DNA from: Shigella phage SHSML-45
Strand: one strand, 5' to 3'
Sequence record: KX130863
DNA: 64,000 nucleotides
In this document: positions 3,141 through 22,303 of the stretch, piece by piece
How positions within the stretch are numbered: position 1 is the stretch's first letter
Layout: each line of letters starts with the position of its first letter
Notes under the pieces: generated by a model
Database searches by the model: none
Seen by the model: the letters and a program-made list of their open reading frames with translations, nothing else
What the model was told of the DNA's origin: nothing
Made by a program: the position numbers and the translations under genes

Positions 3141-3554
3141 TTAAATCAATTCTATATGTGGGCCATCAAAAGTACCACGTTGGATTTCATCCTTATAACT
3201 TCCGTTCTGGTTCCAATCACCACCCCATCTAATCTTTACCCCTAGCTCTTCTGCTGCCTTAAAGAAGGCATCTGCCACTAATTTGAATGATTCTAAATCA
3301 TTCCAATCAATCTTCCCATTTTTAAGAGGAGCAAAGTCAACGGCCAGCCCTTGTACGTGTTTTGACTTGCTCGGGTCTTTTAAAAACGAGGTTCCATTCT
3401 TAATATTTTGGGCGCTTTGTTCTAAGGAACGTAATCCTTCTGTAATCGTAAAATCATATGGGCTTAATTCTAAAGCTCTATGAGTTACTCTTACTAAATC
3501 TGGATGAACACCCTTTAATCTATCTAAACTTCTTTTACCAAATTTAAAACTCAT
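3141..3554 (-). CDS. endolysin, L-alanyl-D-glutamate peptidase (M15/VanY-like)
   Basis: 137 aa; HVQGLAVDF and GPHIEL fit the zinc-ligand H-x6-D...H pattern of M15 peptidases; length matches the T5 endolysin as recalled. Confidence 0.7.
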   Translation of the reverse strand: MSFKFGKRSLDRLKGVHPDLVRVTHRALELSPYDFTITEGLRSLEQSAQNIKNGTSFLKDPSKSKHVQGLAVDFAPLKNGKIDWNDLESFKLVADAFFKAAEELGVKIRWGGDWNQNGSYKDEIQRGTFDGPHIELI

Positions 3555-4207
3555 ATTGATCTACCTAAAGATCTCTGTTGTGGGGAACAGAGCTTTGTTA
3601 AATACTCGTTAAATTTCTCAGAATCGGCTGCATCTACAGGATTATCTTTCCAAGCAATACCAATATATCCAGCATAGATATTGTTTAGATTGAAATAGGG
3701 ACAAGTGTATATGTAATTAAAAGTAACGTTCTTAAACGCAGGTATATTTAACCCCATGTATTTATTTACTTTTACACTTAAATCCGATGCGTAGTTAAAG
3801 CCTTCCAAGTGACGTCTATATAGCTCAGACGTTTTATTTACCGCTTTATCGGCCAAGTCAGCCCTATCTAATTGCGCATTGCTTTCCCATGCAATAATGT
3901 TAGAATAATCATTAATGGCATCGGGTTTATACTTGACGACAAAAACAGCATCCGCACCCGTTTGAGAAAAGAGTACCATGCTCTTTTCTCTAGCTACATT
4001 AGGAAAGTTATCTATCCTTTGAGTTTGAACATCCTGTAGAACCGCAGACGTGGAGAAAGTCTTTAAGAATGACATCACCTCGCTAGTATTACTAACAAAT
4101 AAGAAAATAATGACAGCAACTAAGATAGTTAGCAGACGTTTAAGAAGCGATGCTGGATCTTTCGCTTCTTGGAGCAGTACCGTTAATAATTGTAAGAACT
4201 TTTCCAA
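3551..4207 (-). CDS. membrane protein, candidate holin
   Basis: 218 aa with one N-terminal TM helix (ILVAVIIFLFV); directly upstream of and overlapping the endolysin gene. Confidence 0.35.
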   Translation of the reverse strand: MEKFLQLLTVLLQEAKDPASLLKRLLTILVAVIIFLFVSNTSEVMSFLKTFSTSAVLQDVQTQRIDNFPNVAREKSMVLFSQTGADAVFVVKYKPDAINDYSNIIAWESNAQLDRADLADKAVNKTSELYRRHLEGFNYASDLSVKVNKYMGLNIPAFKNVTFNYIYTCPYFNLNNIYAGYIGIAWKDNPVDAADSEKFNEYLTKLCSPQQRSLGRSI

Positions 4208-16311: not shown

Positions 16312-17259
16312 TTACTTGTTACGCATATCCATAATCATCTGGCCATCGTAACCAGTGCCAACTACTGTTTGAGGTACACCGCCTTGATATTTCTGAGCAC
16401 GAATCATTTCAACTTCTAGTTGTTTCCAGCGAATCATCTCAGGAGTAATAGTACGTTGCAGAGCGGCGTTAGCTTCGGCTTCCTTCTTAGCTGCGTACAG
16501 TTTAGCATCTGCATCACGTTCGTTTGCAATAGCTTGGTTGTTACGAGCTTCACGATCTGCTTCTGCTTGTTTAACCTTCTGCTGTGCTTCTTGTTCAACA
16601 CGAGCCAACTCAGCTTTCGCAGCATTAACTTGTTCCTCACGAACTTTGGTATTCTGTACCTGTTCCACGATTACAGGCGGCAAAGTAATATCCTGAAGGA
16701 ACACTTGCTTAACTGTGTAACCATAAGGGCGTGCATACTCTTCAACTTCCTGTTGAATTGCGGTTTGTAATTGAGCCTGGATTTTAGCATCAAACAAATC
16801 TTGTGCTTTAGGAACAGACTTACCGAACTCACGAATAGTGGACAGTAATTTTTCAGTTACATATTTGTCTAATGCTTGATCCTGGGTACCTGCGTTAATA
16901 CGGTTAATCGGTGCCTTAGAACCATCAAACTGCAACATAACAGTCAGGTCAACAGTGGATTTAAACTTATCCTGACTAGGAACCTGAAGTTTATCTAATT
17001 TTACAGCAATGTCTTTTGTACTAAAAGTATCGAAAGATGCAAATGGGTTTACAAGATGAAAACCAGGTAATACAGGATTAGGGTCTACTTTACCCAGAAA
17101 TGTTTGGGTTTTAACCGTACCATCAGAAACAATAGTATATGAATTAAAAGCTAGGATTAAACCTGCTAAACCAACTACAGCACCAATACCCCAACGTTTA
17201 ATAGTGCGAATTACTTTTTGCTCAGAAGTCAGTTCTTTCATATTTTTAGTATTAAACAT
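16312..17259 (-). CDS. SPFH/band-7 (prohibitin/HflC-like) membrane protein
   Basis: N-terminal TM (GIGAVVGLAGLILAF), SPFH-like core, then an Ala/Glu/Gln-rich coiled coil (EQVNAAKAELARVEQEAQQKVKQAEADREARNNQAIA) as in HflK/HflC. Confidence 0.65.
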   Translation of the reverse strand: MFNTKNMKELTSEQKVIRTIKRWGIGAVVGLAGLILAFNSYTIVSDGTVKTQTFLGKVDPNPVLPGFHLVNPFASFDTFSTKDIAVKLDKLQVPSQDKFKSTVDLTVMLQFDGSKAPINRINAGTQDQALDKYVTEKLLSTIREFGKSVPKAQDLFDAKIQAQLQTAIQQEVEEYARPYGYTVKQVFLQDITLPPVIVEQVQNTKVREEQVNAAKAELARVEQEAQQKVKQAEADREARNNQAIANERDADAKLYAAKKEAEANAALQRTITPEMIRWKQLEVEMIRAQKYQGGVPQTVVGTGYDGQMIMDMRNK

Positions 17260-17270
17260 ATATTTCCTTA

Positions 17271-17471
17271 TTATTTAGAAGAGTTAGCTACTACAGTTAC
17301 TTTAGTTGCAGAAATAAACAGGCTAGCATCCACAGCAAATTCAGGAGCTTTGATATCTCCATTATGAAATATGACTATACCGGAGACTACTTCAAATGCT
17401 AGTGCTGTAACATCGGTGGTATTTACTTGTGAATGTTCACCTACTACTTTTACTATATATCGTGTTTTCAC
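17271..17471 (-). CDS. small protein (66 aa)
   Basis: ORF directly upstream of the SPFH gene. Confidence 0.35.
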   Translation of the reverse strand: MKTRYIVKVVGEHSQVNTTDVTALAFEVVSGIVIFHNGDIKAPEFAVDASLFISATKVTVVANSSK

Positions 17472-17497
17472 TTTATTTTCCTAGCAGTTAATAAAAT

Positions 17498-17572
17498 TGG
17501 CCGAGGTGACAGGATTCGAACCTGCATAAAGGAATTTAGAAGACTCCTGCCTCTCCCTTAGACTACACCCCG
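17498..17572 (-). tRNA. tRNA-Arg (TCT)
   Basis: Acceptor CGGGGTG/CACCTCG, anticodon arm GGAGT-CTTCTAA-ATTCC, T-arm GGTTCGAATCC, CCA. Confidence 0.7.
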
Positions 17573-18074
17573 TTTAAGTATTTTTAAGAACTCTCGTAAA
17601 AACTCTTAAAAATACAGACGATACCGGGAGAGTCATAAGTCTCACTCATTAAGTATTTCAAGACAAAATACAGTAACGTCTATTATTTTCCAGTTTAAGT
17701 CAAGGTGACTTAGTGGTTATGTCCTGCGGTATACTGAGGACTCGGTTAGGTTAGGGTCATGACTCCCCACCTTTTGCTGCTACTCAACAGGAGTTATCGC
17801 GAATTACCTGTGCTATTGTGCACCATTAGTGACATCTCTCATGTCAGCATTTCCCACTTTGTGGATAGCTTGAAAAACTACTCCGATATGGAGAAAGAAC
17901 TTCACTATCCTAGAATACCTTCTAAAGTTCTTCTTTAGCCTGGACATAGTTAAATCGTAATAAAACTATTCAGCAGACTGGTTGGTTAGTCTGGAACCAA
18001 CTACCGCGTGGTTTAGGCAGTGCGCAACTAACCTCGGAAGCTTTTACGTTAAAAGCACCAGTTATCCAGTTCTT

Positions 18075-18146
18075 ACCGACCGTAGGATTCGAACCTACAT
18101 CTTCCACCAGTTACGGCTTGATAATACCGTTTATACTAGATCGGCA
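18075..18146 (-). tRNA. tRNA-like (anticodon unresolved; CCA not encoded)
   Basis: Perfect T-arm GTAGG-TTCGAAT-CCTAC and acceptor GCCGATC/GGTCGGT (two G-U pairs); anticodon arm did not fold by hand. Confidence 0.4.
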
Positions 18147-18258
18147 GTGTTACTACATAAGTGATTTCCACACCCCACTATTTATAAATTAGAGAAGAAT
18201 TACTCTCTAATTTATGAATATATTATACAGAATTTATAAGCATTTAGCAAATGAATTT

Positions 18259-18693
18259 TTAGAAAAACTCGCTAGCAATCAAGGCGGCTGTTTTACCATC
18301 ATAACGCCCCGGAAACTCTGCCTTAATAGTTTTCATTAGGAGAGCTTTGGTAATACCTGGGTTTAGCTTAACCAATTCTGCAAAATATTTACGAATTTCA
18401 GTTTCAGTTAGCTGTTGTAGTGCATAATCATGCTCTAAACGCGCTAAAAGATCTAAGTATTCAGCATCAGGAGTATAGTCAACATTCGATTTTTCAGCGG
18501 CAATCCGTGTATTCTCAATTGCTTTGAGTTGTGATTTCAACCAGTTAGTAAACTCCAGCTCAGTTACGCAATCTTTATCAATACGTTGCAGGTCTCCTAG
18601 AACCGTACTTAGATGCTTAACTGATACAGCGTCACCACTTTTGCGAGCAGCTTCAATCAACTCTCGCAGTACATAAAGCATGTTCATGCCCAT
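18259..18693 (-). CDS. hypothetical protein (144 aa)
   Basis: ORF. Confidence 0.4.
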   Translation of the reverse strand: MGMNMLYVLRELIEAARKSGDAVSVKHLSTVLGDLQRIDKDCVTELEFTNWLKSQLKAIENTRIAAEKSNVDYTPDAEYLDLLARLEHDYALQQLTETEIRKYFAELVKLNPGITKALLMKTIKAEFPGRYDGKTAALIASEFF

Positions 18694-18931
18694 TATTTCA
18701 TCCCCAATGCTTGGTTAAAAGATTGTTCTGTCATAACTACTGAGACTTTGGCGAAATCAAACTTTTTAGGGTTCGTAGTGATCTCAGCAACGTTGGAAGT
18801 TTTAACAGTTTTCGTAGTACGAATACCGCGAGTGCTAACACCAATGACGATCAAGTTTTTCATATTTCGCTTCCTCTCATTAATTTATGAAAGTATTATA
18901 CAGAAGTTTAAGTATTTAAGCAAATAAATTT

Positions 18932-19381
18932 TTAAGTTTTAGTGACAGCAGGCTTATAAAATGTATGTCCCTTAATCTTAGTTGTTTTCTTAAACTTCTT
19001 TGTCCAGTATGGTTTATCTTTACCACTATGGAAGTATAAAGCTCCATGTGTAGGATCTTGTGGTAAATCAACGTAGTATATCACTCTAGCTAAATTCTTG
19101 GCAGTTTGCCAAGCCTCATCGGTTTTATCAACTTTTGGTCTCTTAGATACCCAAGAGAACTGGTTAGACTGATATACTACTTTACAGTAGGAATCTGGAA
19201 ATTTGCCGGAGTTTACACGGTTTTTAGTAACCTGTGCAACCGCCATCATTCCCTTTATGCCCTCACCACGACTCTCGAAATAGATATTTTTAGCAATGCA
19301 ATCTATTTCTTTTGCATCGTGCGATGCTTGACTACTAAAGCTGAAGGTAAGGGCAGCTACTAAAAGCAAAGCTGCCTTCAT
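18932..19381 (-). CDS. secreted cell-wall hydrolase (SleB/CwlJ-like)
   Basis: Signal peptide MKAALLLVAALTFSFSSQA; IAKNIYFESRGEGIKGMMAVAQVTKNR...FPDSYCKVVYQSNQFSW matches the SleB-type hydrolase pattern. Confidence 0.55.
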   Translation of the reverse strand: MKAALLLVAALTFSFSSQASHDAKEIDCIAKNIYFESRGEGIKGMMAVAQVTKNRVNSGKFPDSYCKVVYQSNQFSWVSKRPKVDKTDEAWQTAKNLARVIYYVDLPQDPTHGALYFHSGKDKPYWTKKFKKTTKIKGHTFYKPAVTKT

Positions 19382-19393
19382 TCTTTTTACTCC

Positions 19394-20215
19394 TTAAAAT
19401 AGATCATATTCTAATCTATTGGGATTTTCTCGGTATCCATAAGACGTAAGAGTACCCCTCATATACTCTGCGTCAACAGGATTAGATGTTACTAGAACCA
19501 CTTTTAGTGGTCTTTGACCTAAAAATAGTATATGATCTAATAAGTCTTTTCCTTGTACCTCTGGATCTCCTAAATCTGAGTCCATAAATAAATAGGATCC
19601 TGTGAAACTAAATATATCTGATAGCTCCAGCGCACCTATAACTGTACGACAAATAATGGACATTTCAGGTAGATCTCTAACATCGTCTATTAGAATATTG
19701 GTCTGCTTCCCAATTTCTGCATTACATAAACCATTTACTAGTTTTTCTCTTTCCCCTTTAGCTTGTTCGAAAGTGGTGAAGCCAGGAGATACGAAAAACT
19801 TTCCACCTAATGTAATGCTATACACAAAACCCTCGGGGAGGAGTTCTACACCTACGGTTTTATTAGTATTAATCCTATTTAACTTAAAATTTGTCTCTCT
19901 TAGATTAATAATTCTGTTATCCCACGGTATAGTATTTATATGGTCGATCATATCAGGCGGCTCTTCACCATAATGGAGCAACCACGCTATTCGGTGTCCA
20001 TAAATAATTGTGGGTTTATTATCTAAGAGCAAACTAACTCTGATGTACCCATCAGAGTTCTTACTACATATTTCTCTCCCAGCATATAGGGTGTGCCAAG
20101 TTTTATTCTTGTATTTATTAGGCCTATAAAATAATTTACCGGTATAAGGATTATACTCTATAATTTCTCGAATATAATCTATATATGGTAGTATTTGTTT
20201 TTGTAATTTACCCAT
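19394..20215 (-). CDS. HNH-AP2 homing endonuclease with ~100-aa C-terminal extension
   Basis: YGHRIAWLLHYGEEPPDMIDHINTIPWDNRIINLR and an AP2-like segment, then an unassigned C-terminal domain. Confidence 0.55.
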   Translation of the reverse strand: MGKLQKQILPYIDYIREIIEYNPYTGKLFYRPNKYKNKTWHTLYAGREICSKNSDGYIRVSLLLDNKPTIIYGHRIAWLLHYGEEPPDMIDHINTIPWDNRIINLRETNFKLNRINTNKTVGVELLPEGFVYSITLGGKFFVSPGFTTFEQAKGEREKLVNGLCNAEIGKQTNILIDDVRDLPEMSIICRTVIGALELSDIFSFTGSYLFMDSDLGDPEVQGKDLLDHILFLGQRPLKVVLVTSNPVDAEYMRGTLTSYGYRENPNRLEYDLF

Positions 20216-20657
20216 AATAGCCTCGTTTCATCAATTTAAAAATATATTATACAGATAACTTAATAAATTAGCAAATACATTTTTAAATTGTGAAACTAGT
20301 AAACCGATAAACAGCCTAGAGGCGCCACAGGCCATATCTTATGAGCCATGTACCTTTGATCTAGGGTTTGAATCATCAACGAATACTTTGCATCTTTTAG
20401 CTTTAGAAGTTTAGAAGTTTGAGTTCTTTAAACTTTTCAGCTTTCATACTTAAATGTTGATCTTTGAAGTTGTGTCGGTAATATCAACGACGCTTTGTTC
20501 TTACGTGTCAGCTTAAAAGGCTGGTGTAATAAACATAATCTCCAATAGATTATACTTTATAGTATGGTCAGCGGTCTTATTTAACCTCGTATTTCAACCG
20601 CTGCTGCGAGGTAAGATGCTTGGGCTTTCGTCTACCGATTTACTAGCTTTTAAATTA

Positions 20658-21296
20658 TTACTCTACTTCAATGAAGGTAGAGGCGTTAGACTCGGACAGA
20701 ACAAAGTCAACATTTGTTGCAAAGTCCTGGTATTCCTCGTCATGCTGCTTAATCAGCTTCTCCAGTTCCAGCGGATCAATCAAGAATGGAGTATTCTTGA
20801 GTTCCAGCAGGTTGAGCTGCATTTTAACTTCATCTTCGGAAGTTTTCTTATCGCGGGTAGCCATGCTATCCTGCAAACGCTCATATTTAGCATCAAACTG
20901 TGCTTTCTGCGTATTAAACTTAACTGTAGCGGCATGGAACTGCTTACGCATATTAGCCAGCAACTGAGCTTTAAGCTCCATAGAACGCTTAGCTTCAATT
21001 GCTTCTGCAACAGTCATTCTACGAGAACCGATCTCAACGATCGTTTCTGCGTTGCTCTTAATCAGGGCAGCTTTGATACGATCACGCTGGGACATCATAT
21101 CCAGCAGAGACTGGAAATCAGTCTTAATACGAGTAGACAGGTCATCTACTTCGATTGCAGCGCCAACTACAACCTGGTTTTTATCCTTACCTTCACCAAC
21201 AGCGATCAAAAGCTGTTGTTCAGTAGCTTTACGGATTTTAGCTTCCAGAGATTTGATGGTTGCCAGAGCACGAGTTTTAGAAATACGAGTGGTCAT
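20658..21296 (-). CDS. hypothetical protein (212 aa), host-like codon usage
   Basis: ORF; overlapping plus-strand ORFs judged spurious. Confidence 0.45.
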   Translation of the reverse strand: MTTRISKTRALATIKSLEAKIRKATEQQLLIAVGEGKDKNQVVVGAAIEVDDLSTRIKTDFQSLLDMMSQRDRIKAALIKSNAETIVEIGSRRMTVAEAIEAKRSMELKAQLLANMRKQFHAATVKFNTQKAQFDAKYERLQDSMATRDKKTSEDEVKMQLNLLELKNTPFLIDPLELEKLIKQHDEEYQDFATNVDFVLSESNASTFIEVE

Positions 21297-21348
21297 TGTT
21301 TCTTCCTTATATGAAGTTTAAGATTTGAATTTGTTTAAAGTTGGTCTA

Positions 21349-21531
21349 TTACAGACCAATTGCCAGCAGAGTGCGTAGAACAGTATCGTTACTGTTATCA
21401 ATTTTAGGGTTAGCACGATTTAGCAGATCAAAGATTTTCTGGATGCCGGACTGACGTTCAGCCATACGACGCAGACCCAGGTTACGTTTTGCTACTTTAC
21501 CATTTTTACGGACGTTTTTAGATACTGGCAT
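21349..21531 (-). CDS. small basic protein (60 aa)
   Basis: ORF. Confidence 0.35.
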   Translation of the reverse strand: MPVSKNVRKNGKVAKRNLGLRRMAERQSGIQKIFDLLNRANPKIDNSNDTVLRTLLAIGL

Positions 21532-21601
21532 AATTATTTTCCTTTTGTTGTTTTCTCAAATTTATGAATATATTATACAGAATTTTGGAGCCGGAAGCAA
21601 A

Positions 21602-22303
21602 TCAAATTTTCATTTTTTCGATCATAGCTGCAACACAATAGCTCTCAACTAAGGCATCGAATGCTGGGTCATGTTTAACTGGGTAGATTCCATAACGAAT
21701 GGTATCCATCTTCTCCATCTTAGCTTTTGCCCAGCTAATCCCCTCTGCTTCTAGGTCTTTGTAACTATAACCAGCCTGCATCCAGAGATTGCGGAGAGAT
21801 CGAACATTACCCAAATTCCAGAATTTCCACGGAACTATTTCTTCATTGGTTCCAGCATGGAAAGTGTTTGCAGAGTAGATAGTCATATCAAACTCTGGGC
21901 CGTTGCCATAATACAAAGCATTCTCTCCTAGAGCCAACTCCATAATATTTTGAGCCATAGAGAAGGCAGCATAGTTTGAGCCTAATTTATTAGTGCAATG
22001 ATGTTTACCATTTTGGAAGGCAATCAGTTTTGGATTACGTTCCTTCATAGCTTCCATAATGTGGATAGCAGACGGGCTATTTTTAGCTTGATCCATCCAG
22101 AATGCTAGAGTAGATGCTGTAACTTTGGCACCAGAATTAAGCTGATCCTGCACATCCAAAGTAACAAATACTAGATCAGGGTCTTTATCAACCCCATGCA
22201 TAGCCACAAAAGCGAAAGAAGGCATTACGATATGAGTAGTACCACAATCTCCTGGAGTTCCTAGAGATTCAATATCTAGCATACCAAATGGTTTTACTTT
22301 CAT
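21602..22303 (-). CDS. putative 3'-5' exonuclease (DnaQ/DEDD-like)
   Basis: N-terminal MLDIESLGT resembles the Exo I DxE motif; 233 aa. Confidence 0.45.
   Translation of the reverse strand: MKVKPFGMLDIESLGTPGDCGTTHIVMPSFAFVAMHGVDKDPDLVFVTLDVQDQLNSGAKVTASTLAFWMDQAKNSPSAIHIMEAMKERNPKLIAFQNGKHHCTNKLGSNYAAFSMAQNIMELALGENALYYGNGPEFDMTIYSANTFHAGTNEEIVPWKFWNLGNVRSLRNLWMQAGYSYKDLEAEGISWAKAKMEKMDTIRYGIYPVKHDPAFDALVESYCVAAMIEKMKI

What the first reader, a model, noticed from the sequence alone, without database searches (positions are those of the whole stretch)
18932..19381. Secreted SleB-like cell-wall hydrolase separate from the lysis cassette
A signal-peptide-bearing hydrolase is encoded ~15 kb from the endolysin and holin. 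A secreted peptidoglycan hydrolase made early could act in superinfection control or envelope remodelling rather than lysis.
Basis: partly seen in the sequence, partly recalled or inferred. Interest (0 to 1): 0.45.

Follow-up and report, generated by a model that had tools for sequence, protein, structure and literature searches.

The report
T5 phage exported SleB-like wall enzyme
This is the already-annotated "SleB-like cell wall hydrolase" gene of phage T5 and its relatives: a small wall-cutting enzyme with an export signal, encoded about 15 kb from the phage's lysis genes, real and conserved, but its role has never been tested.

Summary
Window 18932-19381 (minus strand) encodes a 149-aa protein with a full-length Pfam Hydrolase_2 (SleB catalytic) domain (E=1.4e-26) and a textbook N-terminal Sec signal peptide (MK / AALLLVAALTFSF / SQA|SH). 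The M15 endolysin (3141-3554) and T-type holin (3551-4207) lie 15.4 kb away on the same strand.

The window is a T5-like phage. The protein is 100% identical to T5 gene T5.083 (T5p081, "sleb"), annotated since the first T5 genome records. Papers from 2012, 2024 and 2025 already note this SleB-domain "endolysin" away from the holin.

The predicted structure (pLDDT 91.7) matches only the Bacillus SleB catalytic domain. The catalytic Glu (E36) is invariant, dN/dS is about 0.12, and synteny holds across three Demerecviridae lineages. It is not a true SleB orthologue: it lacks the peptidoglycan-binding domain and scores 52.7 against a cut-off of 236.5 on the SleB equivalog model.

Most likely it is a Sec-exported, holin-independent periplasmic lytic transglycosylase that assists wall breakdown. 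The role is untested. Already known; low interest.

The parts
18932..19381 (-). CDS of the 149-aa SleB-like (Hydrolase_2) protein, orthologue of T5 T5.083 / T5p081 / 'sleb'. The stop codon is 18932-18934.
   Evidence: ORF list. Pfam PF07486 E=1.4e-26. 100% identical to the T5 st0 protein and annotated in T5 records. dN/dS about 0.12.
19325..19381 (-). Codons 1-19: predicted Sec signal peptide MKAALLLVAALTFSFSSQA, with predicted signal peptidase I cleavage after A19 (S-Q-A|S).
   Evidence: n/h/c layout and the -3/-1 rule. The pattern is conserved across homologues despite sequence drift. The uncharged run is 15 residues, which resembles the OmpA and MalE signal peptides and is shorter than the 20-residue SAR domains; those comparison sequences were recalled from memory. 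Cleavage itself is inferred, not shown.
18935..19324 (-). Codons 20-149: predicted mature periplasmic enzyme, 130 aa, about 15.0 kDa, pI 9.7. It is a SleB-type catalytic domain only.
   Evidence: MW and pI. AlphaFold2 model with pLDDT 91.7. Foldseek finds only SleB catalytic domains 4F55/4FET (E=3.5e-6, TM 0.77-0.81 on the target).
19274..19276 (-). Codon GAG for Glu36, the predicted catalytic glutamate in the motif Y-F-E-S-R-G-E.
   Evidence: It aligns with the first Glu of GESRGE in B. cereus SleB 4F55 (chain position 26). It is present in 94 of 95 aligned sequences; the remaining one has a gap there. That this residue is Glu157/Glu151 and catalytic in SleB is from my own knowledge of Li et al. 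2012 and Jing et al. 2012. PMC12331253 confirms that SleB has an essential catalytic glutamate.
19390..19395 (-). Shine-Dalgarno AAGGAG, 8 nt before the ATG. It overlaps the TAA stop (19394-19396) of the upstream HNH-cREC gene.
   Evidence: Read directly from the sequence. Shivani annotates an RBS at the same place.
20246..20274 (-). Probable T5 early-type sigma-70 promoter: TTGCTA, 17 nt, TATAAT, then an ATATT discriminator. It would drive the HNH-cREC gene and the SleB-like gene as one transcript.
   Evidence: Consensus scan and sequence. The ATATT discriminator is reported as the mark of T5 early promoters (PMC7472727). T5 records place a putative early promoter at the equivalent position. 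Function is inferred; the promoter scan as a whole was not above chance.
18895..18923 (-). Promoter TTGCTT, 17 nt, TATAAT, starting 9 nt after the SleB-like stop codon. It is positionally equivalent to T5 promoter P-D/E 33, serves the next two genes, and marks the 3' boundary of the unit.
   Evidence: Read from the sequence. T5 annotation 'promoter P-D/E 33' overlaps the 3' end of the gene. No terminator-like site lies between the genes.
3141..4207 (-). Reference only: the canonical lysis cassette, with the holin at 3551-4207 and the M15 peptidase endolysin at 3141-3554.
   Evidence: Phage_holin_T E=8e-114 and Peptidase_M15_4 E=2e-9. Annotated 'endolysin | holin' in Shivani.

Best explanation
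The gene encodes the T5.083-type SleB-family muralytic enzyme of a T5-like phage.

Shown:
- It is a single-domain Hydrolase_2 protein with the SleB catalytic fold and an invariant catalytic Glu36.
- Before that domain sits a conserved Sec-type signal peptide.
- It is under purifying selection.
- It keeps the same position across Demerecviridae, between the tRNA region and the early metallopeptidase/exonuclease genes.

Inferred:
- Host RNA polymerase transcribes it from a T5 early-type promoter, together with the upstream HNH-cREC gene.
- The precursor is exported by Sec and cut by signal peptidase I after Ala19.
- A basic, soluble enzyme of about 15 kDa then builds up in the periplasm, possibly stabilised by a clade-specific Cys28-Cys66 disulfide.
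- By analogy with SleB, it cleaves MurNAc-GlcNAc bonds as a lytic transglycosylase.

Because it reaches the wall without the holin, its most likely role is that of an accessory enzyme. It would nick or thin the glycan strands and complement the holin-dependent L-Ala-D-Glu peptidase endolysin, so that lysis is faster or more robust. It would not be the main lysin.

My confidence by step: enzyme family about 0.9; export about 0.8; accessory-lysis role about 0.4.
For: Family and fold:
- Pfam Hydrolase_2, full length, E=1.4e-26; PHROG 938.
- PDB sequence hits are only SleB 4F55/4FET.
- AF2 pLDDT 91.7; Foldseek finds only SleB catalytic domains below E=1e-3.
- E36 is invariant, and R55, Q74 and H139 are conserved.

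Export:
- Signal-peptide layout conserved in the family.
- C28 and C66 are present together in 89 of 92 clade members, and both are missing in Bacillus SleB, rV5 SleB, JG004 gp029 and P0091.

Conservation:
- dN/dS 0.11-0.12.
- Synteny in Tequintavirus, Epseptimavirus, Sugarlandvirus and Hongcheonvirus.
- About 520 records carry a copy at 60% identity or more, roughly the number carrying the M15 endolysin at that level.

Expression:
- Early-type promoter with ATATT discriminator.

Related phages:
- The rV5-group homologues also carry signal peptides. CB7_83 was toxic when expressed in E. coli (the authors' data not shown), and the CR3_087 homologue has been implicated in lysis (PMC7344957).
Against: - No experiment on T5.083 was found: a search for 'T5.083' returned nothing, and the papers that mention the gene only annotate it.
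- SleB itself needs muramic-delta-lactam, which E. coli peptidoglycan lacks (my own knowledge), so activity on the host wall is not guaranteed.
- Recombinant ladybird Hydrolase_2 proteins did not limit E. coli growth when added from outside (PMC7807722). This is expected for an intact outer membrane and says little.
- A freely active periplasmic wall enzyme made early should risk premature lysis during T5's long latent period. Either its activity is low or restrained, or the role is not lytic.
- The signal peptide was judged by rules, not by SignalP, and processing is unproven.
Confidence: 0.6

Rival explanations
1. Non-lytic periplasmic role. The exported enzyme would remodel the wall early in infection, for example to block superinfecting phages, alter envelope or peptidoglycan structure, or free peptidoglycan fragments, and would contribute nothing to lysis.
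For: - The gene is never next to a holin in Demerecviridae.
- Homologues in rV5 (beside rIIA), in JG004 (beside DNA ligase and dCMP deaminase) and in uncultured 85-95 kb phages (among Thy1, Metallophos, UvdE and RNase H genes) also sit in early or nucleotide-metabolism modules.
- Early export without premature lysis implies a restrained or local activity.
Against: - There is no direct evidence.
- T5's lysis cassette is itself in the early region, so timing and location do not discriminate.
- T5's known exclusion function is the Llp lipoprotein (my own knowledge).
- The CB7 homologue was toxic on expression, and CR3_087 has been linked to lysis.
Confidence: 0.2
2. Membrane-tethered, uncleaved signal-anchor (SAR-type) lysin. 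The N-terminal segment would hold the enzyme inactive in the inner membrane until the holin depolarises the membrane, making it a true second endolysin.
For: - N-terminal hydrophobic segments are universal in the family.
- JG004 gp029 has a longer N-terminal segment with no obvious cleavage site.
- This model would explain why early synthesis is harmless.
Against: - The uncharged run is only 15 residues with a Leu/Val/Phe core. It is followed by a conserved small-x-small site (SQA, SHA, SYA, VQA, AIA) at a fixed position.
- SAR domains recalled for P1 Lyz and R21 are about 20 residues and Gly/Ala-rich.
- The catalytic Glu lies only 17 residues after the predicted cut.
Confidence: 0.12
3. The hydrolase fold is kept, but the protein is not an active enzyme on the host wall. 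It could be a relic, a peptidoglycan-binding protein, or an enzyme with another substrate.
For: - Bacillus SleB depends on a cortex-specific substrate that is absent from E. coli (my own knowledge).
- The EPS7 reference record carries the gene split by a compensated frameshift. If that is real, loss is tolerated.
Against: - The catalytic Glu and the surrounding motif are invariant, and dN/dS is about 0.12.
- The gene is retained in hundreds of genomes across several genera.
- The EPS7 defect looks like a sequencing artefact, because the frame is restored after 8 codons.
Confidence: 0.06
4. Virion-associated lysin used for wall penetration at entry.
For: Phages often carry a second muralytic activity in the particle.
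Against: - A Sec signal peptide sends the protein out of the cytoplasm, where virions are assembled.
- The gene lies in the early region, not among the structural genes.
- T5's entry muralytic activity is assigned to tail protein pb2 (my own knowledge).
- Searches for 'endolysin', 'hydrolase', 'SleB' and 'cell wall hydrolase' in the main text of the phiR2-01 proteogenomic paper found no mention of such a protein. Its protein tables were not examined.
Confidence: 0.02

Closest known systems
Phage T5 gene T5.083 (NC_005859) = T5p081 'cell wall hydrolase homolog' (AY692264) = 'sleb, spore cortex-lytic enzyme precursor' (AY587007), and its orthologues throughout Demerecviridae
   Same: The protein is 100% identical to T5, with only 2 synonymous DNA differences. 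Downstream neighbours and position relative to the tRNA region are the same.
   Different: The upstream neighbour differs. Here, as in Salmonella phage Shivani, the 105-aa T5.084 gene is replaced by a 273-aa HNH endonuclease + cREC_REC fusion.
Bacillus SleB (B. cereus 4F55, B. anthracis 4FET), the germination-specific lytic transglycosylase
   Same: Same catalytic-domain fold (TM 0.77-0.81 on the target, rmsd 2.3-2.4 A, 30-32% identity) and the same catalytic Glu motif.
   Different: There is no N-terminal peptidoglycan-binding domain. It fails the SleB equivalog model TIGR02869 (52.7 against a cut-off of 236.5 bits; only profile positions 79-201 match). It has a clade-specific Cys pair that SleB lacks. 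The host has no spore cortex, so the substrate must differ.
Bacillus CwlJ, a single-domain Hydrolase_2 cortex-lytic enzyme
   Same: Single catalytic domain of similar size with the same catalytic glutamate position (PMC12331253).
   Different: CwlJ acts in the spore coat and cortex and is not a Sec-secreted periplasmic protein (my own knowledge). It was not compared directly here.
SleB-like proteins of rV5-like and related phages (rV5 ORF2, Pectobacterium phage CB7_83, Cronobacter phage CR3_087) and of Pakpunavirus (JG004 gp029)
   Same: They share the Hydrolase_2 domain and an N-terminal export signal, and they are encoded away from a classic lysis cassette in large virulent phages of Gram-negative hosts. 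A signal peptide, toxicity on expression and a suggested lysis role are reported in PMC7344957.
   Different: Identity is only about 35-41%. They lack the C28/C66 pair. CB7 has an overlapping candidate holin, whereas no small membrane-protein gene flanks the gene here.
Signal-peptide and SAR endolysins (Oenococcus phage fOg44 Lys44; P1 Lyz; phage 21 R21)
   Same: The wall enzyme reaches its substrate through Sec and not through holin holes (a functional analogy, from my own knowledge).
   Different: The catalytic families are unrelated. Those enzymes are the phage's only endolysin and sit in the lysis cassette. Here a separate holin-dependent endolysin exists, and the signal looks cleavable and not SAR-like.

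Membership tests
Pfam Hydrolase_2 (PF07486, SleB-type cell wall hydrolase domain) | HMM score above the gathering threshold over the whole domain | tested here: met
   93.5 bits against a cut-off of 27, E=1.4e-26, profile 1-100/100.
Pfam Hydrolase_2 (PF07486, SleB-type cell wall hydrolase domain) | SleB catalytic-domain fold | tested here: met
   AF2 model pLDDT 91.7. Foldseek against the PDB gives only 4F55 and 4FET below E=1e-3, with TM 0.77-0.81 normalised to the target.
Pfam Hydrolase_2 (PF07486, SleB-type cell wall hydrolase domain) | Catalytic glutamate in the (Y/G)-E-(S/A)-R-G-E motif | tested here: met
   E36 aligns with the first Glu of GESRGE in 4F55. It is present in 94 of 95 aligned sequences; the remaining one has a gap.
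Pfam Hydrolase_2 (PF07486, SleB-type cell wall hydrolase domain) | Lytic transglycosylase chemistry (1,6-anhydro-MurNAc products) | not testable with these tools
   Needs muropeptide analysis of digested sacculi.
True SleB (NCBIfam TIGR02869 spore_SleB, equivalog) | Score above the equivalog cut-off | tested here: not met
   52.7 bits against a cut-off of 236.5.
True SleB (NCBIfam TIGR02869 spore_SleB, equivalog) | N-terminal peptidoglycan-binding domain before the catalytic domain | tested here: not met
   Only profile positions 79-201 of 201 match. The protein runs from the signal peptide (aa 1-19) straight into the catalytic domain (aa 22-142).
True SleB (NCBIfam TIGR02869 spore_SleB, equivalog) | Dependence on muramic-delta-lactam of the spore cortex | not testable with these tools
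   This is a biochemical property, and the host is a non-sporulating enterobacterium.
Sec-secreted protein with a cleavable (type I) signal peptide | Positive n-region, hydrophobic h-region of about 10-15 residues, c-region with small residues at -3 and -1, and no lipobox Cys | tested here: met
   K2; the 10-residue window from residue 4 (ALLLVAALTF) has mean Kyte-Doolittle hydropathy 2.69; S17-Q18-A19|S20; no Cys before residue 28. The layout is conserved in homologues. This is a rule-based test only, because SignalP was not available.
Sec-secreted protein with a cleavable (type I) signal peptide | Actual export and cleavage | not testable with these tools
   Needs fractionation, N-terminal sequencing or PhoA fusions.
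SAR (signal-anchor-release) endolysin | Uncleaved, weakly hydrophobic N-terminal transmembrane domain of about 20 residues, rich in Gly/Ala/Ser | tested here: not met
   The uncharged run is 15 residues with a Leu/Val/Phe core and is followed by a conserved cleavage-type site. The SAR reference sequences were recalled from memory.
Canonical endolysin of a holin-endolysin lysis cassette | Encoded next to the holin (and spanins) | tested here: not met
   The holin and the M15 endolysin are at 3141-4207, 15.4 kb away. The neighbours here are an HNH-cREC gene, DUF7616 and a YqeY-like gene.
T5.083 orthologue group of Demerecviridae | High identity and conserved gene neighbourhood | tested here: met
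   100% identity to T5. Synteny with T5, Shivani, EPS7, SuperGirl, a Klebsiella Sugarlandvirus and Pectobacterium phage DU_PP_V.

The most novel reading that the evidence does not exclude
Exported single-domain SleB-like enzymes may form an unrecognised functional class shared by several unrelated groups of large virulent phages of Gram-negative bacteria: Demerecviridae, Vequintavirinae, Stephanstirmvirinae, Pakpunavirus and uncultured 85-95 kb phages. In each group the gene sits in an early or nucleotide-metabolism module, not with the lysis genes. Their real job might be an early, non-lytic change to the periplasmic wall and not cell bursting, for example conditioning the wall for the infection cycle, exclusion of other phages, or altered peptidoglycan turnover.
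Probability: 0.15. Interest if true: 0.5.

Novelty: already known. Interest (0 to 1): 0.2.

Why it matters
As a discovery it matters little. The gene has been annotated in T5 since the first genome records, and its separation from the holin has been noted in print.

What remains open is a modest question. A model phage and hundreds of relatives keep, under purifying selection, a second wall-cutting enzyme that reaches the periplasm on its own, and nobody has shown why. The answer would refine the picture of T5 lysis and of the "multiple endolysins" repeatedly reported in therapeutic-phage genomes. It would also show whether this small, basic, self-exporting enzyme is of any use as an antibacterial.

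Tried and rejected
- Literature: a search for 'T5.083' found nothing. Searches on T5/SleB, T5-like/cell wall hydrolase, PF07486 and Tequintavirus/cell wall hydrolase returned only genome-annotation statements and no experiment on the T5 protein.
- SleB structure papers: the two papers (PMC3415495, PMC3621120) are not held. The residue numbering of the catalytic Glu therefore rests on my own knowledge plus the alignment offset.
- Promoters: the scan of 17900-21700 found no more sites than shuffles do (13 against 12.7 expected). The promoter assignment rests on the T5 annotation and the ATATT discriminator, not on the scan.
- Disulfide: I wanted the Cys28-Cys66 distance in the model, but coordinates are not exposed. 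The disulfide remains an inference from co-occurrence.
- Conservation: comparing counts of SleB-like hits and endolysin hits gives only a rough figure, because the record lists cannot be intersected.
- Adjacent holin: I looked for a small membrane-protein (holin-like) ORF overlapping or flanking the gene, as reported for phage CB7. None is present.
- Rejected readings: lipoprotein (no lipobox Cys), an internal-start cytoplasmic isoform (the only internal Met residues, M45 and M46, lie after the catalytic Glu), and the 85-aa plus-strand ORF at 19106-19363 (no support).

Full report
**What is there.** Window 18932-19381 on the minus strand is an ATG-initiated ORF of 149 codons. An AAGGAG Shine-Dalgarno lies 8 nt upstream and overlaps the TAA stop of the preceding gene (sequence). 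The product matches Pfam Hydrolase_2 (PF07486, 'Cell Wall Hydrolase', the SleB catalytic domain) over the whole profile: E=1.4e-26, 93.5 bits against a gathering score of 27. It also matches PHROG 938 'endolysin'. The 85-aa plus-strand ORF that overlaps it has no support.

**Where the window comes from.** The region 17000-21500 is 99.3% identical to Salmonella phage Shivani and 97% identical, over 77% of its length, to Escherichia phage T5. The window also carries ten tRNA genes, as expected of the T5 tRNA region. The protein is 100% identical to T5 st0 T5p081 'cell wall hydrolase homolog'. The same gene is 'sleb, spore cortex-lytic enzyme precursor' in AY587007 and T5.083 'endolysin' in RefSeq NC_005859. 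At DNA level it differs from T5 by two synonymous changes. So the finding is a known, annotated gene of a model phage.

1. Hydrolase domain: confirmed, as above. Independent support comes from structure. An AlphaFold2 model built on 30 homologues has mean pLDDT 91.7. In the PDB, Foldseek finds only the catalytic domains of B. cereus SleB (4F55) and B. anthracis SleB (4FET) below E=1e-3 (E=3.5e-6, TM 0.77-0.81 on the target, rmsd 2.3-2.4 A); the next hit has E=0.77. Sequence search of the PDB gives the same two proteins. Glu36 (motif YFESRGE) aligns with the first Glu of GESRGE in SleB. From my own knowledge of the 2012 SleB structure papers, that is the catalytic Glu157 (B. cereus) or Glu151 (B. 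anthracis). PMC12331253 confirms that SleB has an essential catalytic glutamate. Glu36 is present in 94 of 95 aligned sequences, and the remaining one has a gap at that column.

2. Signal peptide: confirmed by sequence rules only, because SignalP is not among the tools. The N-terminus reads MK / AALLLVAALTFSF / S-S-Q-A|S-H. That gives one positive charge, a 15-residue uncharged run with a Leu/Val/Phe core, and small residues at -3 and -1 before a cut after Ala19. There is no lipobox cysteine. In homologues the residues drift but the layout stays. SHA|T, SYA|S, VQA|Q and AIA|S sit at the same place, a fixed 17 residues before the catalytic Glu. The segment resembles the OmpA and MalE signal peptides and is shorter than the roughly 20-residue Gly/Ala-rich SAR domains of P1 Lyz and R21 (those reference sequences are recalled from memory). 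The predicted mature protein has 130 aa, about 15.0 kDa and pI 9.7.

3. Separation from the lysis cassette: confirmed. The T-type holin (PF11031, E=8e-114) is at 3551-4207 and the Peptidase_M15_4 endolysin at 3141-3554, both on the minus strand. That is 15,378 bp from the SleB-like gene.

**Is it a real, maintained gene?** Yes. dN/dS is 0.11-0.12 against the 86%-identical Epseptimavirus orthologue, in both the signal peptide and the mature part. tblastn finds copies at 60% identity or more in about 520 phage records. That is about the same number as carry the M15 endolysin at that level. This comparison is rough, because the record lists could not be intersected.

The neighbourhood is conserved. 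The order metallopeptidase or exonuclease, then the T5.085 and T5.084 homologues, then the SleB-like gene, then DUF7616 and the YqeY-like gene, then tRNA-Arg is kept in Tequintavirus, Epseptimavirus, a Klebsiella Sugarlandvirus and Pectobacterium phage DU_PP_V of the Mccorquodalevirinae.

**Expression (inferred).** A site reading TTGCTA, 17 nt, TATAAT lies at 20274-20246 on the minus strand, with an ATATT discriminator directly after the -10 element. ATATT is reported as the signature of T5 early promoters (PMC7472727). T5 records annotate a putative early promoter at the equivalent place. This promoter would transcribe the 273-aa HNH-cREC gene and then the SleB-like gene, whose SD overlaps the upstream stop. 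Nine bases past the SleB-like stop lies a TTGCTT, 17 nt, TATAAT promoter. It corresponds by position to T5 P-D/E 33 and serves the next genes. The promoter scan as a whole was not enriched over shuffles (13 against 12.7 expected), so these assignments lean on the T5 annotation.

**Is it SleB?** It works like the SleB catalytic domain, but it is not a SleB orthologue. Against the NCBIfam equivalog TIGR02869 it scores 52.7 bits against a cut-off of 236.5, and only the C-terminal catalytic part of the model (positions 79-201) matches. The N-terminal peptidoglycan-binding domain is absent.

The phage clade also has two cysteines, C28 and C66. They are present together in 89 of 92 members and jointly absent in Bacillus SleB, rV5 SleB, JG004 gp029 and the outlier P0091. 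This all-or-none pattern in an exported protein suggests a periplasmic disulfide. I could not check the distance between them, because model coordinates are not exposed.

**What it most likely does.** The chain runs as follows: early transcription, Sec export, cleavage after Ala19, then a soluble basic periplasmic enzyme cutting glycan strands as a lytic transglycosylase. Only the sequence-level steps are shown; the rest is inference from the family. Because the enzyme reaches the wall without the holin, I favour an accessory role. It would complement the holin-dependent L-Ala-D-Glu peptidase by attacking the other bond type and so make lysis faster or more robust.

Support from related phages is indirect. 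The Vequintavirinae homologues also carry a signal peptide: rV5 ORF2 starts VKIKIFAIILSAFLSLPVVAAP. The CB7 authors report a signal peptide and toxicity on expression in E. coli (their data not shown). They cite the CR3_087 homologue as implicated in lysis (PMC7344957).

Two points count against this view. No experiment on the T5 protein was found. And an active periplasmic wall enzyme made early ought to endanger the cell during a long latent period, so its activity must be weak, local or restrained.

'Made early, hence superinfection control or remodelling rather than lysis' cannot be excluded, but its logic is weak. The T5 holin and endolysin are themselves in the early-gene region (PMC3326045) and on the same strand here. 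The one observation that speaks mildly for a non-lytic role is gene context. Exported Hydrolase_2 genes recur in early or nucleotide-metabolism modules of unrelated large virulent phages:
- beside rIIA in rV5;
- beside DNA ligase and dCMP deaminase in JG004, where the N-terminus looks like a membrane anchor;
- among Thy1, Metallophos, dGTP diphosphohydrolase, UvdE and RNase H genes in uncultured 85-95 kb phage contigs.

Phapecoctavirus and other coliphages also carry a Hydrolase_2 protein alongside a standard lysozyme-type endolysin (PMC10793346; PMC12031403).

**Novelty.** Already known. Besides the GenBank annotations, three papers cover it:
- Niu et al. 2012 list 'cell wall hydrolase SleB' with the lysozyme and holin of a T5-like phage.
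- Guzel et al. 2024 explicitly report that Tequintavirus and Epseptimavirus genomes carry one M15 endolysin next to the holin and a second SleB-domain 'endolysin' far from it, and they ask which one the phage mainly uses.
- A 2025 Tequintavirus paper again lists the cell wall hydrolase among the phage's redundant endolysins.

What is not known is the function. That is a modest, testable question and not a surprise.

**Verdict.** The gene is ordinary and already annotated, and interest is low.

Noticed in passing
window 19394-20215 (-): The gene just upstream is a 273-aa single ORF that joins an HNH_3 endonuclease domain (aa 73-107; PHROG 99) to a cREC_REC 'cyclic-phosphate processing receiver' domain (aa 173-257). 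The C-terminal 100 aa are 51% identical to the stand-alone 105-aa T5.084 of T5. It looks like a homing endonuclease fused in frame to the 5' end of the T5.084 homologue, and it is also present in Shivani.
   Followed up: partly
L007 (Escherichia phage EPS7, NC_010583) 2001-2450: The EPS7 reference record splits the SleB-like orthologue into two 'endolysin' CDS. An 8-codon stretch is out of frame (KKPC*LWY instead of KNRVNSGK) and then returns to frame. This is probably a sequencing artefact and not a pseudogene.
   Followed up: partly
window 19184-19186 and 19298-19300 (-) (codons for Cys66 and Cys28): Two cysteines are present together in 89 of 92 clade members. Both are absent in Bacillus SleB, rV5 SleB, JG004 gp029 and one outlier. 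This may be a clade-specific periplasmic disulfide. The distance in the model could not be checked.
   Followed up: partly
window 18073-18146 (-) and 17498-17572 (-): ARAGORN calls a tRNA-Ser with the odd anticodon ACT at 18073-18146. T5 records mark the equivalent stretch as a pseudo-tRNA, or as part of the stable 'RNAX' of unknown function that lies next to tRNA-Arg(TCT).
   Followed up: no
window 20658-21296 (-): The 212-aa ORF homologous to T5.085 is labelled 'tail fiber protein' in several RefSeq or automated annotations. It lies in the early region and has no Pfam match, so this is probably a propagated mis-annotation.
   Followed up: no
window 3141-3554 (-): The M15 endolysin allele here is 100% identical to Shivani's. 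Only 24 phage records have a copy at 80% identity or more, while about 494 have one at 60-80%. The SleB-like gene, by contrast, is at 80% identity or more in about 434 records. The canonical endolysin is therefore much more variable among T5-like phages than the SleB-like gene.
   Followed up: no
L011 3305-3748; L012 6001-6444; L013 6001-6480: Signal-peptide-bearing homologues at 41-42% identity occur in uncultured 85-95 kb phage contigs. Each is the first gene of a rightward block of Thy1, Metallophos and small genes at a divergent junction, with no lysis genes nearby.
   Followed up: partly
window 16312-17259 (-): A 315-aa SPFH/Band 7 membrane-scaffold protein (the T5.080 homologue, annotated 'lipoprotein' or 'transmembrane protein') is encoded 1.7 kb downstream. 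It is another envelope-directed early product of unknown role.
   Followed up: no
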